Below, one piece after another: positions 47,201-53,200 of a DNA stretch of 64,000 nt. A program made the position numbers. This DNA is from Escherichia coli (GTDB lineage: Bacteria > Pseudomonadota > Gammaproteobacteria > Enterobacterales > Enterobacteriaceae): NCBI RefSeq assembly GCF_003790525.1, contig NZ_CP033635.1. One strand, given 5' to 3'. Every line of letters begins with the position of its first letter. Position 1 is the first letter of the stretch.

Positions 47201-50200
47201 ATTAACTTTATAATCAGTTTGCCAAAGGTAATTAACAGGACAGGGCTTATAATAATAATTAGCTTACTGTGTATTAATTTGATGTAATGCATGATGCAGA
47301 TGCTGAGAAAGCATCTGCATCTTTCGGTGGTGTTATTTGACCAGCTCAGGTGTTACCTGACTCACCGCGTTGGTGTAGTAAGGCGCACCCCAGCCCGGTT
47401 CCGGCCAGAATGCACCATAGCCGTAATCCCACAGGTTATAGGTGGTATTAACCACTTCTCTCAAATGCCACACCTGGATGCCCTGCATATTCACTTCGAG
47501 GAAGTTATACGGGACTTTATTGATAAAGCCAGGTTGTTCACCCTGAATGGTACCGAGGATGGTAACAAAGTGATTACGATAGTTCACTGGATCAAGGAAG
47601 CCGCTTTGTCTGGCGAGCAGTCGGCCCTGATAGTTGGCTTCAATATCAGGCTTCGCATAGCTATCCAACGGTAATACAGCGATTTCTAACAACGTATCCG
47701 TTTTGCCATTGATAACGTTGATAACCTTCCCACCAAAGCGCGCTTGTTGACCAACATATAACCCCGGCTGGTTATGAACAGCAACAAAACTTTTTTGAAT
47801 ATCAGGTTGGTTATTACCTTTGATATTTTGCGGAATTGAACTACATGCGGCAAGCAAAAATGAAAGGCTGAGGATGAGTGCACCTTTTGTCATGTTCATG
47901 TTACTATCCTTATCAACAAATATTAAAACCATAATAGATATTTCTTTATAGTTTTCATCTGATTCTGAGGCGATATGCCTGATAGTAACGTAAACCTGTC
48001 TGATGTTTATATCCCTTCTGTTTAGTTTAATTCTGTTAATTTTGTGGCGTGACATGAGTATCCATCGCCCCATAAAATAGCCTTTTTTTAAAGGTGCATA
48101 AAATCTATTTTTATTCAATGCTTATAAAGCGCTAATGTTCAATATTATGGGATTATATTCTGGTAATGATTTGATAAGCGAATTCTTTTGCCAATTGGTG
48201 TTTCTATTTCTACCCCATAATTTATAGTTTTTTCATCAGGTAGCGATCTCTTTAAATAAGGTGCGTATGACATTTTTTTAGGATGAAACGTATCGTGTTG
48301 AAATATTTCGAATTGATATTCAGACATTTGTGCCCATTTTTTAATTCTATTGTATCGAGAGGGTGTTGTAAAATCTTTAACTTGCTTGTAACATTCTTTT
48401 TGGAATTCTTGCTGATATTTTATTATGTCGTTGTATGAAAGATTGTTTACCCTGGTTTCTAATAATTCTATTATTGTCGAAGCAATTTCCGCTTTTGCTC
48501 TTAAAGAGTTGTCATTAATGGTTAATAATGTTGAAAATAAACCATTGATTTGTTTGTCAACATATTGTTCATCTTTATGTAATTTTGTGATGGGGTTTTC
48601 CTTATGTGAAAAAATAGTATCAAATAAATTTGCGTCAGTGAAGTTTACATTAAGTAGATCTTCGAAATAAAACCTTGACAAGGTTAGAACGAACCCGGAC
48701 AGGTCCTGTCCTGTCATATTGAAATCAATAAAGTTGGTTCCAGCAAAGACTTTCATCCTGTTTTCATTTTCACTGTGCTCAATATACAACCTTGTCATTT
48801 TTTGGTACAAGCGTTGAATATCTTTTATATCAGTTGGTAAATCAGTTCGTAGCCCAGAAAAATTTTTATTTTCGGAAGAAACGGTTTGGACACTGAATCT
48901 TACTGGTATTCCCTCTTCTACGAGAATTTTAGTTATGATTGGCTTATTGGGCTTAGGATTAAAGACAACAATGATTTTAGATTCAGAGTTTTTATTCTTT
49001 TCGTATCTAATGTTATTAATCTGATTAAGTATTGATTGTGTCTGTTGCGTAAGTGGTGTCGAACTTATCGTTTCAATGTTATTAATAAGTTTTACAAGTT
49101 GAGCCACAACTTTTGAGTAGTCTGCATTTGTATATGTGGTGTTCGTGTGGCACGCATTAATTTGTTGGAGTTGTTGTTGCGCTAAATCAAATTGTTCAGC
49201 GTTATATCCTTCTTCAGACAATGAAAAATTAATGGGTTGCTGTTCTTCCTGATTATCACAAGGCCACATCGGTGTGTCTGGTGTTTTAACATTGTCGGTA
49301 TCTGTTGTGCGGTTATAAATATCGCCGTGATATGTATTTATCATACCTGGGGTAAAGTCAATTGACATAACATTCCTTATTGTTCATCTATTTCGCTAAA
49401 TTTTTGTAAATCGGAGAATTAGAGCAGGAATGGATTTTCTTCTACGCGGAAATAAACACAATGCGTCATATCTTCCTGATATAATTACCTTTAACTTCCC
49501 TTTCATTTCCACCCGATAATATTTGTGTATAAAAAAAGGGCAGTGATAGTATCGTAAAGGAAAACATTAACAACTATCAAAAAGCGCTCATTTTAAGAAG
49601 TTATGATGTTCTCCGATAGTGTGTGAAGTGATATTTTTGTGATGTTTTAGATGTGTAATAATGAACCAGGTTAAAGTGTATTTAAAAATGTGTTGTATTG
49701 GCGACTGAAATCTACCCTTTAAAAGGGGGATGATACTGAGACAAAGAGACATTGCTTCTCCGATAAAATGTCAGAGAAGCATGATTGCGTGGTGATTGTC
49801 GATTGATGACTTACTGACGGATCCGTCATCATTCTCAAAGCATTAGTTAAGTTATTTGTTATTTTTAAGGATTATCCTATCTATGATTTTCTACTCAGAA
49901 GGATAAGGCACTCACAATACTCCTTATAGTTTACTGCTGGCATCTATTTAAAATAGCATTTGAGTCAAATAGCCCATCAAGATAGCCATACCTAATATAA
50001 CCGTCAGGAATGCAACTATCATCGGTATTCTGAACATTGATTTAAGTAATATCACTTCCGTCAGGCTTGCGCCGGCACTGCCGATGATTAATGCCATTAA
50101 TGCTCCCAGACCCATTCCTTTTGTCATCAAAACAGATGCCAGAGGGATAACTGCCTCTGCCCGGATATATAGCGGAATACCAACAACGGCGCTCAATGGG

Positions 50201-53200
50201 ATGGCGAAGGGATTATCTGCCCCTGCATGAGCGGCAATCCACTCTGAGGGAATAAAGCCATAAATAAAAGAGCCTATTAATACCCCTAACAAAGATATGG
50301 CAGTACATCTTTAAACTGTTGCAACGCATCTTTGGTGGCTAGTTTTATGGGATTAATACTTACCACAGCTTTGGTATTGCAACAGTTAACTACGGGTTTC
50401 TCAATGGCTTTAGCCGTTGGACTACAGCAACTCACTTCTATTGGCGTATATGTCGTCCCCGGCGAAGTTTTGGCTGGAGCACAACAATTTGCTGATGAGC
50501 TTTTACTGGCAATGATATGACGTTCAAATCCCAGGGAATCCAGGATAATACTGGCAAGTACGGAGACGCCGGCGGCGATAATCGCGTACAACAAGGTAAC
50601 TTTCCAGCCAAAGGTCACCCACATTAACCCGACGATAATGGGATTAAGTAATGGGGAAACAAATAAAAAAGTGAGGGTCGGACCAAACCCGGCTTTCGCT
50701 GATAACAATCCACGTAACATGGGGATTGTCGAGCAACTACAGAACGGGGTAACGGCTCCCAACAGAGCAGCCAGGAGATAACCTCTCCCTTTTCTGGCCC
50801 CCATCATCTGCTGGATTTTATGGTCTGGCACCTTTTGTCTTATCAGGCTGACACCGGCACTAATCACTATAAACAGCAAAGAAAGCTCGACGGCGAGAAA
50901 CACAAACATCTCTGCGGCATCTTGCAGCATCGCAAGCCAACTACTCATACGTAACCTCATTGAATAAATCTATATTTCCAGAATAATCGAAATGAAATTC
51001 AGATCAAGATATTTCTGGTATTATCGAAATATCAACCAGACAGAGGGGAGTCATATGCAGTTGGAAGAAGTTGCTAAAGCGCTGAAAGAGCTAGGTCACC
51101 CGACCCGTTTGTTCATATTTAAGCATCTGGTCAAAGCGGGGGAACAAGGTTTGCCGGTCGGTGAGTTGCAAAAGCAGCTTGGGATACCCGGCTCTACACT
51201 CAGTCACCATATTTCAGCACTGGTATCGGTAGGGTTGGTCAAACAAAACCGTGAGAGTCGGACGCTGATGTGTGTTTCGCAATACGCAATGCTGGAAGCG
51301 ATAATTGAATTTTTACGTGAGGAGTGCTGCGTAAACAGCAAAACAGATGGCGAAGGAGCCACGAAGAACAAATAAGGGGGCATATCCCCCTTTAGCTATT
51401 TCAGGCGTTTACCCGCCTCATCAACCACTTTCTCGCCATCTTCCTTGGTGAACGCGCGTTGTTGCGCATCTGGCAGAATTTCCAGCACCACTTCTGAAGG
51501 GCGGCACAGGCGAGTTCCCAGCGGTGTCACCACAATCGGGCGGTTAATCAGGATGGGATATTGCAGCATAAAGTCGATTAACCGATCGTCAGTAAATTTA
51601 TCTTCTGCAAGGCCCAGTTCCTCATACGGCTCAACGTTTTTACGCAACAGCGCACGAACGGAAATCCCCATATCGGCAATGAGCTTGATCAGTTCATCGC
51701 GTGTGGGTGGAGTTTCCAGATAATAGATAATGGTCGGTTCTGTACCGCTGTTGCGAATCATCTCCAGCGTATTACGCGACGTGCCGCAGGCCGGGTTGTG
51801 ATAAATAGTAATGTTGCTCATATCAGTATCTCATTACAAAGTGAAAGAGAGACGAAGCGCCAGCGCGGCGAGCGTCACAAACAGCACCGGCAGGGTCATG
51901 ATAATCCCTGTACGGAAGTAATATCCCCAGCTGATAGTCATATTCTTCTGCGAAAGTACGTGCAGCCAGAGCAGCGTTGCCAGGCTACCAATCGGTGTAA
52001 TTTTCGGCCCCAAATCGCAGCCAATTACGTTGGCATAAACCATCGCTTCTTTGATGACACCAGATGCCGTGCTGCCATCAATGGACAACGCGCCAACCAG
52101 TACCGTCGGCATATTGTTCATAATAGAAGAGAGGAAGGCGGTGAGGAATCCGGTGCCGAGCGTCGCCGCCCACAGGCCGTTATCCGCCAGCACGTTGAGT
52201 ACGCCAGAAAGATATTCCGTTAATCCGGCATTGCGCAGGCCATAAACCACCAGATACATGCCGAGCGAGAAGATGACAATCTGCCAGGGCGCACCGCGCA
52301 GCACCTTACCCGTATTAATCGCATGACCGCGTTTAGCGACGACAAATAATATCAGCGCGCCCACTGCCGCAATGGCGCTTACCGGAATGCCGAGCGGTTC
52401 CAGGACGAAAAATCCCACCAGCAGAAGCAGTAAAACAACCCCGCCAGTTTTGAAGGTGGCAGGATCTTTAACCGCTTCTGCGGGAGATTTTAGCAGCGCC
52501 ATGTCGTAGTTCTGCGGAATATCTTTGCGGAAATAGAGATGCAACATCACCAGGGTAGCCAGTATTGCAGCGATATCCACCGGCACCATCACCGAGGCGT
52601 ATTCGCGAAAGTCGAGGCTAAAGAAATCTGCCGAAACGATATTCACCAGGTTAGAGACAATAAGCGGCAGGCTGGCGGTATCGGCAATGAATCCGGCCGC
52701 CATAACAAACGCCAGCGTAGTGCCTTTGTTGAACCCTAAAGCCAGCAGCATGGCGATGACAATCGGTGTCAAAATAAGCGCCGCGCCATCATTGGCAAAC
52801 AGAGCTGCAACGGCAGCACCGAGCAGGACAATCCAGGTAAACAGCAAGCGACCGCGCCCATTGCCCCAGCGTGAGACGTGCAGCGCCGCCCATTCAAAAA
52901 AGCCGGACTCATCCAGCAGCAAGCTGATGATAATGACGGCTATAAACGCCGCCGTCGCGTTCCAGACGATATTCCACACCACCGGAATATCGCCCGGATG
53001 GACCACGCCAGTAACTAACGCCAGTACGGCGCCCAGTGTCGCACTCCAGCCGATGCCTAAACCTTTCGGCTGCCAGATAACCAATACGATGGTCAGGACA
53101 AAGATAGCGCCCGCCAGTAACATCATGCCTCCTTGATAAAACACATTCGAATATTCATATGTGTTTAGATAAATTTTTTAACTACAAATATTCTTACTGT

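What the first reader, a model, noticed from the sequence alone, without database searches (positions are those of the whole stretch)
49948..51375. Second arsenic-type module next to arsRBC: ArsR-family regulator divergent from an ArsP-like permease
Between arsC and yhiS, where K-12 has nothing as I recall, there is a divergent pair. The permease N-terminal part contains TPFCSCSTIP, which matches the TPFCSCSxxP signature I associate with ArsP organoarsenical (methylarsenite) efflux permeases. The regulator lacks the canonical ArsR CVC site but has a vicinal Cys pair (EECCVN) near its C-terminus, like atypical ArsR regulators that bind trivalent arsenicals through C-terminal cysteines. Together with arsRBC this would extend the locus from inorganic to organoarsenical resistance.
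Basis: partly seen in the sequence, partly recalled or inferred. Interest (0 to 1): 0.65.

Follow-up and report, generated by a model that had tools for sequence, protein, structure and literature searches.

The report
Methylarsenite sensor and pump pair
Next to the ordinary arsenic-resistance genes of this E. coli strain sits a regulator-plus-exporter pair that closely matches a known bacterial system for sensing and pumping out methylated arsenic. It is common in E. coli, already named in the literature, and the pump gene is broken by a one-base deletion in this copy.

Summary
Between arsC and the yhiS-like gene lie a minus-strand permease gene (49948-50948) and a divergent ArsR-family regulator (51055-51375). 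The permease is split by a one-base deletion in an A-run at 50291-50293.

The window is E. coli SMS-3-5. In its RefSeq record the permease is intact (333 aa). The pair occurs in 2,217 of 5,426 complete E. coli genomes. K-12 keeps only short relics.

The permease is a full-length Pfam ArsP_1 protein. It is 32% identical (E 3e-54) to the characterised Campylobacter jejuni ArsP, and its TPFCSC motif aligns with that protein's Cys65/Cys67. It is far more distant from YraQ.

The regulator is 58% identical to SpArsR of Shewanella putrefaciens 200, a methylarsenite-selective repressor. Its vicinal cysteines align with SpArsR Cys101/Cys102, and there is no third downstream cysteine. Its operator box matches the SpArsR-controlled arsP promoter at 24 of 25 bases.

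Relatives sit beside arsH, arsD, arsA, acr3 or arsC in several independent arrangements.

Best reading: an SpArsR/ArsP-type methylarsenite sensing and efflux module, inactive as written in this window. A 2017 paper already named the E. coli architecture "ArsRBCRP".

The parts
49948..50948 (-). arsP-like permease gene (ArsP_1 family). It is interrupted by a -1 frameshift. The intact allele encodes 333 aa (WP_000100281.1).
   Evidence: ORFs. Pfam ArsP_1, E 1.5e-52, residues 9-330. 32% identity and E 3e-54 to C. jejuni ArsP. Single-base difference from NC_010498.1.
50291..50293 (.). Frameshift site. The window has an AAA run where the RefSeq SMS-3-5 record has AAAA. This splits the permease after ...KDVLPYL (codon ~219), just past the Cys-rich loop.
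   Evidence: Alignment of the window to NC_010498.1. Inserting one A restores the full protein.
50721..50750 (-). Codons for TPFCSCSTIP (residues 67-76, Cys70 and Cys72). This is the conserved cysteine pair of ArsP permeases.
   Evidence: Translation. Aligns to TPFCSCSSIP (Cys65/Cys67) of C. jejuni ArsP. F69, C70, S71, C72 and P76 are invariant in 59 relatives selected for carrying a TPFC-type motif. In the AF2 model the motif sits at the break between helices 55-66 and 71-83.
50352..50513 (-). Codons for the central hydrophilic loop (residues 146-199), which carries three vicinal cysteine pairs (155-156, 174-175, 189-190).
   Evidence: Cysteine map. Disordered in the AF2 model, pLDDT about 50. 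The loop varies in length but is rich in cysteine pairs across the clade.
50972..50993 (.). Operator-like box 1 (ATATTTCCAGAATAATCGAAAT, an ATTTC-N10-GAAAT dyad). It overlaps the predicted -10 of the regulator promoter.
   Evidence: Repeat finder. Conserved in the E. coli, plasmid, Aeromonas and Citrobacter intergenic regions. Promoter scan is consensus-level only.
51009..51030 (.). Operator-like box 2 (ATATTTCTGGTATTATCGAAAT). It overlaps the predicted -35/-10 of the permease promoter.
   Evidence: Identical in the E. coli, Aeromonas, Citrobacter and plasmid copies while the flanks diverge. 24 of 25 nt identical to a site in the SpArsR-controlled arsP promoter of S. putrefaciens 200 (sequence from PMC12124457 Text S3).
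51055..51375 (+). ArsR/SmtB-family repressor of the SpArsR type (106 aa, WP_001175590.1). Cys73 is at 51271-51273 and the vicinal pair Cys91-Cys92 at 51325-51330.
   Evidence: NCBIfam HTH_metalloreg, 61.7 bits against a cut-off of 55. Best PDB match is AfArsR 6J05, with the CC pair on Cys95/Cys96. 58% identical to SpArsR, with the CC pair on Cys101/Cys102.
51374..51392 (.). GC-rich hairpin (AAGGGGGCATATCCCCCTT) between the convergent regulator and arsC genes. It is a likely terminator.
   Evidence: Terminator-like scan and sequence. Function is inferred.
51396..53531 (-). The neighbouring canonical arsRBC operon: arsR 53178-53531 (with the CVC site), arsB 51834-53123, arsC 51396-51821. It handles inorganic arsenic.
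   Evidence: ORFs and RefSeq annotation.

Best explanation
This is a two-gene methylarsenite [MAs(III)] sensing and efflux module of the SpArsR/ArsP type, attached to the arsRBC operon.

Proposed mechanism:
1. The regulator is a dimeric winged-helix repressor. It binds two ATTTC-N10-GAAAT dyads in the 106-bp intergenic region and shuts off both divergent promoters.
2. A trivalent organoarsenical needs only two thiol ligands. It binds the vicinal pair Cys91-Cys92 at the end of the C-terminal helix and releases the repressor.
3. Inorganic As(III) needs three thiols. It should induce poorly, because the third cysteine of the AfArsR-type site is missing.
4. The derepressed permease has two inverted four- or five-helix halves. 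It exports MAs(III) and related trivalent organoarsenicals using the membrane potential. The substrate is bound by Cys70/Cys72 in the TPFCSC motif at a helix break in mid-membrane.

What is shown and what is inferred:
- Shown here: homology, the aligned cysteines, the shared operator and the gene neighbourhoods.
- Shown by others, for orthologues only: MAs(III)-selective derepression by SpArsR and MAs(III)/roxarsone(III) efflux by C. jejuni ArsP.
- Inferred: that the E. coli proteins do the same, and the membrane topology.

In this window the permease carries a one-base deletion. The module as written could sense but not export. The RefSeq record of the same strain has the intact gene.
For: Permease:
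- Pfam ArsP_1, E 1.5e-52, full length.
- 32% identity, 168 bits, E 3e-54 to C. jejuni ArsP, with the cysteine pair aligned.
- Far closer to that protein than to YraQ (46 bits).
- On a rough NJ tree it falls on the C. jejuni ArsP side of the family.
- Literature: the C(S/T)C motif is universal in ars-operon ArsP proteins, with 'tPF' upstream in cluster 2 (PMC4435449). ArsP exports MAs(III) and Rox(III) but not As(III) (PMC6205960).

Regulator:
- Best solved relative is AfArsR, with the CC pair on Cys95/Cys96 and no Cys102 equivalent.
- 58% identical to SpArsR without gaps. Cys91/92 align to Cys101/102 and Cys73 to Cys83.
- Operator box 2 matches the SpArsR-controlled arsP promoter at 24/25 nt.
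- The dyad recurs in orthologous intergenic regions.
- SpArsR lacks the third cysteine and responds to MAs(III), not As(III) (PMC11868830; PMC13236881).
- The SpArsR/ParsP biosensor reached 73% of the derepressed signal at 1 uM MMAs(III), against 9% at 50 uM As(III) (PMC12124457).

Gene context, in independent arrangements:
- arsRBC-R-P in E. coli.
- arsRDABC-R-P in a Citrobacter prophage.
- P | R-arsH-sigma70-arsD-arsA on Salmonella and Citrobacter plasmids.
- acr3-arsD-arsA-P-R in Endozoicomonas.
- 27 of 80 species-level loci have ars structural genes within 8 kb.
Against: - No experiment on the E. coli proteins was found.
- Identity to the characterised permease is only 32%.
- The TPFCSC motif is shared with other ArsP_1 subfamilies, so it does not define substrate.
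- NCBIfam places the protein in no curated family. The top, sub-threshold, hit is a Cu/Zn efflux family. C. jejuni ArsP behaves the same way.
- In the closest clade (47% identity or more), 25 of 27 loci have no other ars gene nearby. The arsenic link for that clade therefore rests mainly on the regulator and on the enteric, Endozoicomonas and plasmid contexts.
- An extra invariant cysteine in the wing (Cys73) has no explained role.
- The permease is frameshifted in the window.
Confidence: 0.75

Rival explanations
1. The pair handles inorganic trivalent metalloids or soft metals (As(III), Sb(III), Cu, Zn, Cd) rather than organoarsenicals. The permease would be a thiol-lined soft-metal exporter like the SO_0444 Cu/Zn efflux family. 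The regulator would use Cys73 plus Cys91/92 as a three-thiol site.
For: - The best NCBIfam hit is SO_0444 Cu/Zn efflux (110 bits).
- Cys73 is invariant in all 23 orthologous regulators.
- Six of the 23 also have a CCx4C third cysteine, as expected for As(III) sensors.
- The multi-Cys loop would bind many thiophilic ions.
Against: - The SO_0444 score is far below the 300-bit cut-off, and C. jejuni ArsP scores similarly (94 bits).
- SpArsR carries the same wing cysteine (Cys83), yet is reported as MAs(III)-selective and gave only 9% induction at 50 uM As(III).
- Neighbours are arsenic genes, not cop, czc or znt genes.
Confidence: 0.12
2. The pair is a thiol, persulfide or sulfite stress module of the BigR/YgaV kind. 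Oxidation or persulfidation of the regulator cysteines would derepress a permease for a sulfur compound. The position next to ars genes would be incidental.
For: - YgaV (3CUO) and BigR (3PQJ) are the second and third PDB hits (E about 2.5e-7).
- NCBIfam BigR gives 38 bits.
- A sister ArsP_1 subfamily is paired with a thioredoxin-like protein.
Against: - The BigR score is far below its 155-bit cut-off.
- The BigR alignment stops before the CC pair, and YgaV has a single C-terminal cysteine there.
- Identity to SpArsR is much higher (58%) and the operator is shared.
- ars genes adjoin the pair in at least four different gene orders.
- The thioredoxin-paired subfamily also lies in ars clusters (PMC preprint 10.1101/2022.10.17.512643).
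Confidence: 0.04
3. In this genome the module is simply a decaying remnant. The frameshift is a real inactivating mutation and the locus is on the same path as in K-12, so it has no present function whatever its ancestry.
For: - The one-base deletion splits the permease.
- K-12 retains only a 62-bp relic (77% identity) of the regulator's 3' end and a weaker, roughly 65-bp stretch (local alignment score 40) resembling part of the permease gene.
- About 59% of complete E. coli genomes lack the full pair.
Against: - The RefSeq record of the same strain has the gene intact. The only three differences found in 50 kb are one substitution and two single-A deletions, a pattern typical of sequence-version or homopolymer errors.
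- 2,217 genomes carry the full-length region. All 25 full-length chromosomal hits sampled list a permease feature under the match, and in the two inspected in detail (SMS-3-5, UTAK-6) it carries no pseudogene flag.
- The regulator is intact and highly conserved.
Confidence: 0.4

Closest known systems
ArsP of Campylobacter jejuni, a methylarsenite/roxarsone(III) efflux permease (Shen 2014; Chen 2015, as summarised in PMC6205960)
   Same: - Same Pfam family (ArsP_1).
- Full-length alignment at 32% identity.
- Identical TPFCSCS core with the two essential cysteines.
- A central loop containing a CC pair.
- Located in an ars locus.
   Different: - Only 32% identical.
- The C. jejuni gene is first in a single operon, arsP-arsR-arsC-acr3, under a CVC-type (type 1) ArsR that As(III) and As(V) induce (PMC3598800).
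- The E. coli gene is a separate divergent unit with its own two-cysteine regulator, and its loop carries three CC pairs rather than one.
SpArsR (Sput200_1227) with arsP (Sput200_1226) of Shewanella putrefaciens 200, an MAs(III)-selective repressor and its target
   Same: - The regulators are 58% identical without gaps.
- Same three cysteines (wing Cys plus vicinal pair).
- Identical GSTLSHHISAL recognition helix.
- Operator site identical at 24/25 nt.
- Same adjacent regulator and arsP genes; the divergent orientation was seen in the closely related S. xiamenensis locus.

   Different: - The E. coli copy is fused to arsRBC, whereas the Shewanella-type loci examined stand alone.
- The permease of the closely related S. 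xiamenensis locus is 49% identical to the E. coli one.
- The S. putrefaciens 200 permease itself was not available to compare.
- The SpArsR sequence used here was rebuilt from a supplement in which two bases had been lost in text conversion.
AfArsR of Acidithiobacillus ferrooxidans (PDB 6J05), type 2 As(III) site
   Same: - Best solved-structure match (E 3e-10).
- The vicinal pair aligns with Cys95/Cys96 at the end of the C-terminal helix.
   Different: - AfArsR has the third ligand, Cys102, and senses inorganic As(III). The E. coli protein lacks it.
- The E. coli clade has an extra invariant wing cysteine that AfArsR lacks.
E. coli 'ArsRBCRP' and 'ArsRDABCRP' operons named by Dong et al. 2017 (PMC5718612)
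   Same: - Same gene order as in this window (arsR-arsB-arsC-R-P).
- The longer form matches the Citrobacter prophage locus seen here (arsR-D-A-B-C-R-P).
   Different: That paper assigned the names by database annotation only. It did no analysis of the second regulator, the cysteines or the operator, and no functional test.
ArsP_1 permease plus thioredoxin-like protein pairs (called ArsP-ArsE in P. mercurii ND132)
   Same: - Same Pfam family and same TPFCSCSxxP motif.
- Also found in ars clusters.
   Different: - A different branch of the family (about 26-34% identity), with a longer N-terminus.
- Always followed by a small thioredoxin-family gene, which this module lacks.

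Membership tests
ArsP (trivalent organoarsenical efflux permease, C. jejuni ArsP type) | Full-length ArsP_1 (PF03773) membrane domain | tested here: met
   Pfam ArsP_1, E 1.5e-52, residues 9-330 of 333.
ArsP (trivalent organoarsenical efflux permease, C. jejuni ArsP type) | End-to-end homology to the characterised C. jejuni ArsP, closer than to non-arsenical family members | tested here: met
   32% identity, 168 bits, E 3e-54 to C. jejuni ArsP. K-12 YraQ gives only 24% and 46 bits. 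The tree sketch agrees, but has no support values.
ArsP (trivalent organoarsenical efflux permease, C. jejuni ArsP type) | The two conserved cysteines (C. jejuni ArsP Cys65 and Cys67, C(S/T)C motif) in a membrane helix | tested here: met
   Cys70/Cys72 in TPFCSCSTIP align with TPFCSCSSIP. The motif is described in PMC4435449. It is not exclusive to this branch.
ArsP (trivalent organoarsenical efflux permease, C. jejuni ArsP type) | Encoded in or beside arsenic-resistance gene clusters | tested here: met
   Adjacent to arsRBC here, arsRDABC, arsH-arsD-arsA on plasmids and acr3-arsD-arsA. 27 of 80 loci overall, but only 2 of 27 in the closest clade.
ArsP (trivalent organoarsenical efflux permease, C. 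jejuni ArsP type) | Exports MAs(III)/Rox(III), but not As(III) or pentavalent forms | not testable with these tools
   Needs resistance and vesicle-transport assays.
ArsP (trivalent organoarsenical efflux permease, C. jejuni ArsP type) | Intact reading frame in this window | tested here: not met
   A one-base deletion at 50291-50293 splits the gene. It is intact in NC_010498.1.
SpArsR-type (two-cysteine, MAs(III)-selective) ArsR repressor | ArsR/SmtB winged-helix fold | tested here: met
   NCBIfam HTH_metalloreg, 61.7 bits against a cut-off of 55. PDB matches are all ArsR/SmtB proteins.
SpArsR-type (two-cysteine, MAs(III)-selective) ArsR repressor | Vicinal cysteine pair homologous to SpArsR Cys101/Cys102 (= AfArsR Cys95/Cys96) | tested here: met
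   Cys91/92 align to AfArsR Cys95/96 and to SpArsR Cys101/102.
SpArsR-type (two-cysteine, MAs(III)-selective) ArsR repressor | No third ligand cysteine (AfArsR Cys102) and no type 1 CVC site | tested here: met
   The tail after the CC pair is VNSKTDGEGATKNK, with no cysteine. The helix-3 region is HPTRLFIFKHL, with no cysteine. Criterion taken from PMC11868830.
SpArsR-type (two-cysteine, MAs(III)-selective) ArsR repressor | Controls an adjacent arsP through a shared operator | tested here: met
   Divergent arrangement, with two dyad boxes. Box 2 is 24/25 identical to the SpArsR-regulated arsP promoter. Actual binding was not tested.
SpArsR-type (two-cysteine, MAs(III)-selective) ArsR repressor | Derepressed by MAs(III) and not by As(III) | not testable with these tools
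   Shown for SpArsR only (PMC12124457).
SO_0444 family Cu/Zn efflux transporter (NF033936) | Score at or above the curated equivalog cut-off (300 bits) | tested here: not met
   109.9 bits. C. jejuni ArsP scores 94 bits on the same model.
YraQ-type permease | Close similarity to E. coli YraQ | tested here: not met
   24% identity, 46 bits. The motif site reads MMCTCC.
BigR-type sulfite/persulfide sensor (NF040642) | Score at or above the curated cut-off (155 bits) | tested here: not met
   38.3 bits.

The most novel reading that the evidence does not exclude
The disordered, probably cytoplasmic loop between the two halves of the permease may be a built-in arsenical-capturing arm. In E. coli it carries three vicinal Cys-Cys pairs. 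Across the clade it varies greatly in length but almost always contains CC or CxxxC pairs. It would work like the metallochaperone ArsD, collecting trivalent (organo)arsenicals and passing them by thiol exchange to the Cys70/Cys72 site. This would be a substrate-delivery step not described for ArsP. In addition, the invariant wing cysteine of this regulator clade may have an undescribed role in allostery or redox control.
Probability: 0.2. Interest if true: 0.45.

Novelty: new member of a known kind. Interest (0 to 1): 0.25.

Why it matters
If the homology-based reading holds, about two in five sequenced E. coli carry a dedicated defence against methylarsenite and trivalent aromatic arsenicals such as reduced roxarsone. 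These include pathogenic and livestock-associated lineages, and nearly a thousand plasmids of E. coli, Salmonella, Klebsiella, Citrobacter and other genera carry related copies.

Those compounds are made by gut and soil microbes and derive from former poultry and pig feed additives. The module could therefore contribute to fitness in animal guts. On plasmids it could contribute to co-selection with antibiotic-resistance genes.

K-12 holds only relics of the pair, so it has no resident arsP. That fits with published MAs(III) biosensors and ars expression tests using K-12-derived arsRBC-deleted hosts.

None of this changes understanding of arsenic biology. The system type is known, and the E. 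coli gene order has already been named in print.

Tried and rejected
- Primary papers not held. The ArsP paper (PMC4681449) and the SpArsR paper (PMC5653410) could not be read. Their content was taken from open papers that cite them, and from my own recollection where marked.
- Searching the large protein database with a Shewanella regulator returned no entry named for strain 200. The SpArsR sequence was recovered instead from a biosensor supplement.
- NCBIfam gave no family-level name for the permease.
- There is no sequence relative in the PDB and no significant fold match. The best was the TRAP transporter SiaQM at E 0.16. The resemblance to elevator-type transporters is therefore left as a weak hint.
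- I first treated TPFCSCSxxP as an ArsP-specific signature. I dropped that after finding it in the thioredoxin-paired subfamily, and after seeing close relatives that lack the second cysteine.
- 'K-12 has nothing here' was refined to 'K-12 has relics'.
- I considered whether the wing Cys73 makes a three-thiol As(III) site. I judged it unlikely, because SpArsR has the same cysteine and responds poorly to As(III). No coordinates were available to measure distances.
- Rfam found nothing inside the module.

Full report
**What is in the sequence**

The window is E. coli SMS-3-5. A 9.5-kb stretch around the finding is identical to NC_010498.1 except for one missing A. Over 50 kb there are only three differences: a T/A substitution at 19872 and single-A deletions at 50290 and 62214.

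On the minus strand the gene order is gor, dinQ, arsR (53178-53531), arsB, arsC (51396-51821). The plus-strand regulator (51055-51375) follows, then the minus-strand permease (49948-50948), a yhiS-like ORF, slp and dctR.

The permease appears as two ORFs because of the missing A in the run at 50291-50293. Adding it back gives the 333-aa protein that RefSeq annotates simply as 'permease'. The regulator's conserved start is ATG at 51055, not the upstream ATG at 50992.

**Distribution**

The 1.5-kb region is present at 80% coverage or more in 2,217 of 5,426 complete E. coli genomes. A version about 84% identical is found at 363 plasmid sites. A protein search of the plasmid collection found 994 records, mainly Escherichia, Salmonella, Citrobacter and Klebsiella.

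K-12 lacks the pair. Between arsC and yhiS it has 301 bp with REP elements. That stretch includes a 62-bp relic 77% identical to the regulator's 3' end, which translates as ...CVNSKIA*, the ending of the 98-aa allele. It also includes a weaker relic of the permease. The pair therefore looks ancestral in E. coli and deleted in the K-12 lineage, rather than inserted here.

**The permease**

- It is a full-length ArsP_1 protein. It has no solved relative by sequence and no curated NCBIfam assignment.
- A scan of species-representative genomes with the conserved peptide returned 80 loci. One is the C. jejuni arsP-arsR-arsC-acr3 operon, the operon in which ArsP was defined (PMC3598800).
- The E. 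coli protein aligns with C. jejuni ArsP over its whole length: 32% identity, E 3e-54. TPFCSCSTIP lies over TPFCSCSSIP. Counting from the Met of MEKLV, the C. jejuni cysteines are residues 65 and 67, which agrees with my recollection of the published numbering.
- A rough neighbour-joining tree puts the E. coli clade on the same side as C. jejuni ArsP. The thioredoxin-paired subfamily lies on the other side and YraQ far outside. The tree has no support values.
- Published work states that all ars-operon ArsP homologues carry a C(S/T)C motif, preceded by 'tPF' in one of two clusters (PMC4435449).
- The motif is not a specific marker. It also occurs in the ArsP_1 subfamily that is followed by a small thioredoxin-like gene, and some close relatives lack the second cysteine.

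**The regulator**

- It passes the NCBIfam ArsR/SmtB model.
- Its best solved relative is AfArsR (6J05). The alignment puts EECCVNSK over ENCCHGTR, that is, on Cys95/Cys96. Nothing corresponds to the third ligand, Cys102.
- Reviews describe SpArsR of S. putrefaciens 200 as AfArsR-like but lacking Cys102, and as responding to MAs(III) rather than As(III) (PMC11868830; PMC13236881).
- The SpArsR gene and the arsP promoter are printed in the supplement of a biosensor paper (PMC12124457). After stitching across two bases lost in text conversion, the protein has 105 residues with cysteines at 83, 101 and 102, which matches the published numbering.
- The E. coli regulator is 58% identical to SpArsR over 92 residues without gaps. 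Cys91/92 fall on Cys101/102 and Cys73 on Cys83.
- In that paper, the SpArsR/arsP-promoter reporter reached 73% of the unrepressed signal with 1 uM MMAs(III), but only 9% with 50 uM As(III).

**The operator**

The 106-bp intergenic region holds two 22-bp boxes (50972-50993 and 51009-51030). Each is an ATTTC-N10-GAAAT dyad.

- Box 2 is identical in the E. coli, Aeromonas, Citrobacter and plasmid copies, although the surrounding bases differ.
- It matches the SpArsR-controlled arsP promoter at 24 of 25 positions.
- Similar dyads, usually two, lie between the regulator and permease genes of Vibrio, Pseudoalteromonas, Colwellia, Shewanella and Aliivibrio.
- Consensus promoter hexamers overlap both boxes. 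This is a pattern match only.

**Neighbourhoods**

The regulator-permease pair is a conserved unit: 18 of the 27 closest species-level loci have the same regulator type next to the permease. It stands alone in Aeromonas and in most marine gammaproteobacteria.

It adjoins arsenic genes in several different orders:
- arsRBC in E. coli.
- arsRDABC inside a Citrobacter prophage.
- arsH, a sigma-70 family gene, arsD and arsA on Salmonella Infantis and Citrobacter arsenatis plasmids. These are often cut back by IS26 to the bare pair.
- acr3-arsD-arsA in Endozoicomonas.

Overall, 27 of 80 loci have an ars structural gene within 8 kb. From memory of the SpArsR paper's abstract, SpArsR orthologues control arsP and arsH. 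The plasmid arrangement fits that.

**Structure and mechanism**

An AlphaFold2 model built from 59 relatives is confident (mean pLDDT 87.8, pTM 0.84), except for residues 146-199. It shows two similar halves. The TPFCSC motif sits at the break between helices 55-66 and 71-83, and an equivalent break occurs at 261-263 in the second half.

By the positive-inside rule, the basic loops 39-55 and 146-215 should be cytoplasmic (my inference). No solved structure matches significantly.

The working model follows the orthologues. The repressor sits on the two boxes. MAs(III) bridges Cys91 and Cys92 and releases it. The permease then exports trivalent organoarsenicals, with Cys70/Cys72 as the binding site.

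**What is unusual**

All eight cysteines of the permease are either in the motif or in three vicinal pairs within the disordered loop. Across the clade the loop ranges from about 40 to about 117 residues. Even so, 36 of 44 loops have two or more cysteines, usually as CC or CxxxC, and C. jejuni ArsP has one CC pair.

The regulator clade has an invariant wing cysteine. Six of the 23 orthologues add a third cysteine four or so residues after the CC pair, as expected for As(III) sensors.

**Novelty**

A 2017 microbiome paper already labels E. coli operons 'ArsRBCRP' (strain ST2747) and 'ArsRDABCRP' (strain FHI98) from database annotation (PMC5718612). I found no functional study of the E. coli proteins in the library searched.

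The finding is therefore a correct recognition of an uncharacterised member of a known system type, not a new kind of system. Interest is low to moderate.

Noticed in passing
L095 (K-12 NC_000913.3) 4681-4981, compared with window 49678-51375: K-12's arsC-yhiS spacer is a deletion scar. It holds a 62-bp relic (77% identity) of the regulator's 3' end, reading ...CVNSKIA*. It also holds a weaker relic of about 65 bp from the permease and REP elements. The pair was probably lost in the K-12 lineage rather than gained elsewhere.
   Followed up: yes
window 50352-50513 (permease residues 146-199); loci L012-L091: The disordered central loop has three vicinal Cys-Cys pairs. In relatives its length varies from about 40 to about 117 residues and it is often Ser/Thr-rich. 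36 of 44 loops keep two or more cysteines (CC or CxxxC). One Lentisphaeria protein has it as tandem repeats. No role has been described, as far as I could find.
   Followed up: partly
window 51271-51273 (regulator Cys73): A cysteine in the wing strand (GRxLxC) is invariant in all 23 orthologous regulators. It corresponds to Cys83 of SpArsR and is absent from AfArsR. Its role is unexplained.
   Followed up: partly
loci L017, L019, L022, L024, L030, L052 (regulators next to the permease): Six marine orthologues of the regulator have an extra cysteine after the vicinal pair (for example ECCADEEC), resembling the three-cysteine AfArsR site. These may be As(III)-responsive variants of the same module.
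   Followed up: no
window 19872, 50290, 62214: These are the only differences from NC_010498.1 in 50 kb. There is a T/A substitution inside rcdB, a single-A deletion that frameshifts the permease, and a single-A deletion in the uspB-uspA spacer. The pattern suggests a different sequence version or homopolymer errors.
   Followed up: partly
L009 (S. Infantis plasmid pN17S0376) 2992-8038; L098 (Citrobacter arsenatis plasmid) 3769-7134; L003, L097, L099: The plasmid form of the module is arsP divergent from arsR2-arsH-(sigma-70 family gene)-arsD-arsA. In several resistance plasmids IS26 has cut it back to the bare regulator-permease pair, next to aph(3') or near blaCTX-M-65. The sigma-70 family gene inside an ars cluster is odd.
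   Followed up: partly
L006-L008 (Citrobacter) 2230-8092: An arsRDABC operon plus the same regulator-permease pair is carried as cargo inside a lambdoid prophage, between replication genes and dinI/rusA/lysis genes.
   Followed up: no
window 53681-53763 and 53914-53997, minus strand: Two copies of the AgrB antisense small RNA (Rfam RF02891, 85 and 108 bits) lie between arsR and dinQ, as in K-12.
   Followed up: no
window 48145-49368, minus strand: The yhiS-like gene is an intact 407-aa ORF here, with no NCBIfam match. In K-12 it is split by IS5, and in strain UTAK-6 it is frameshifted.
   Followed up: no
window about 26000-46600 (chuS at 45561-46589): The chu haem-uptake cluster lies between dctR and yhiD in this strain. 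In K-12 and UTAK-6 those two genes are adjacent.
   Followed up: no
L092 4752-5997; L093 4162-10084: A separate ArsP_1 subfamily with the same TPFCSCSSIP motif is always followed by a small thioredoxin-family gene. In an Acinetobacter plasmid it is embedded in arsC-...-arsR-arsC-acr3-arsH-arsO.
   Followed up: partly
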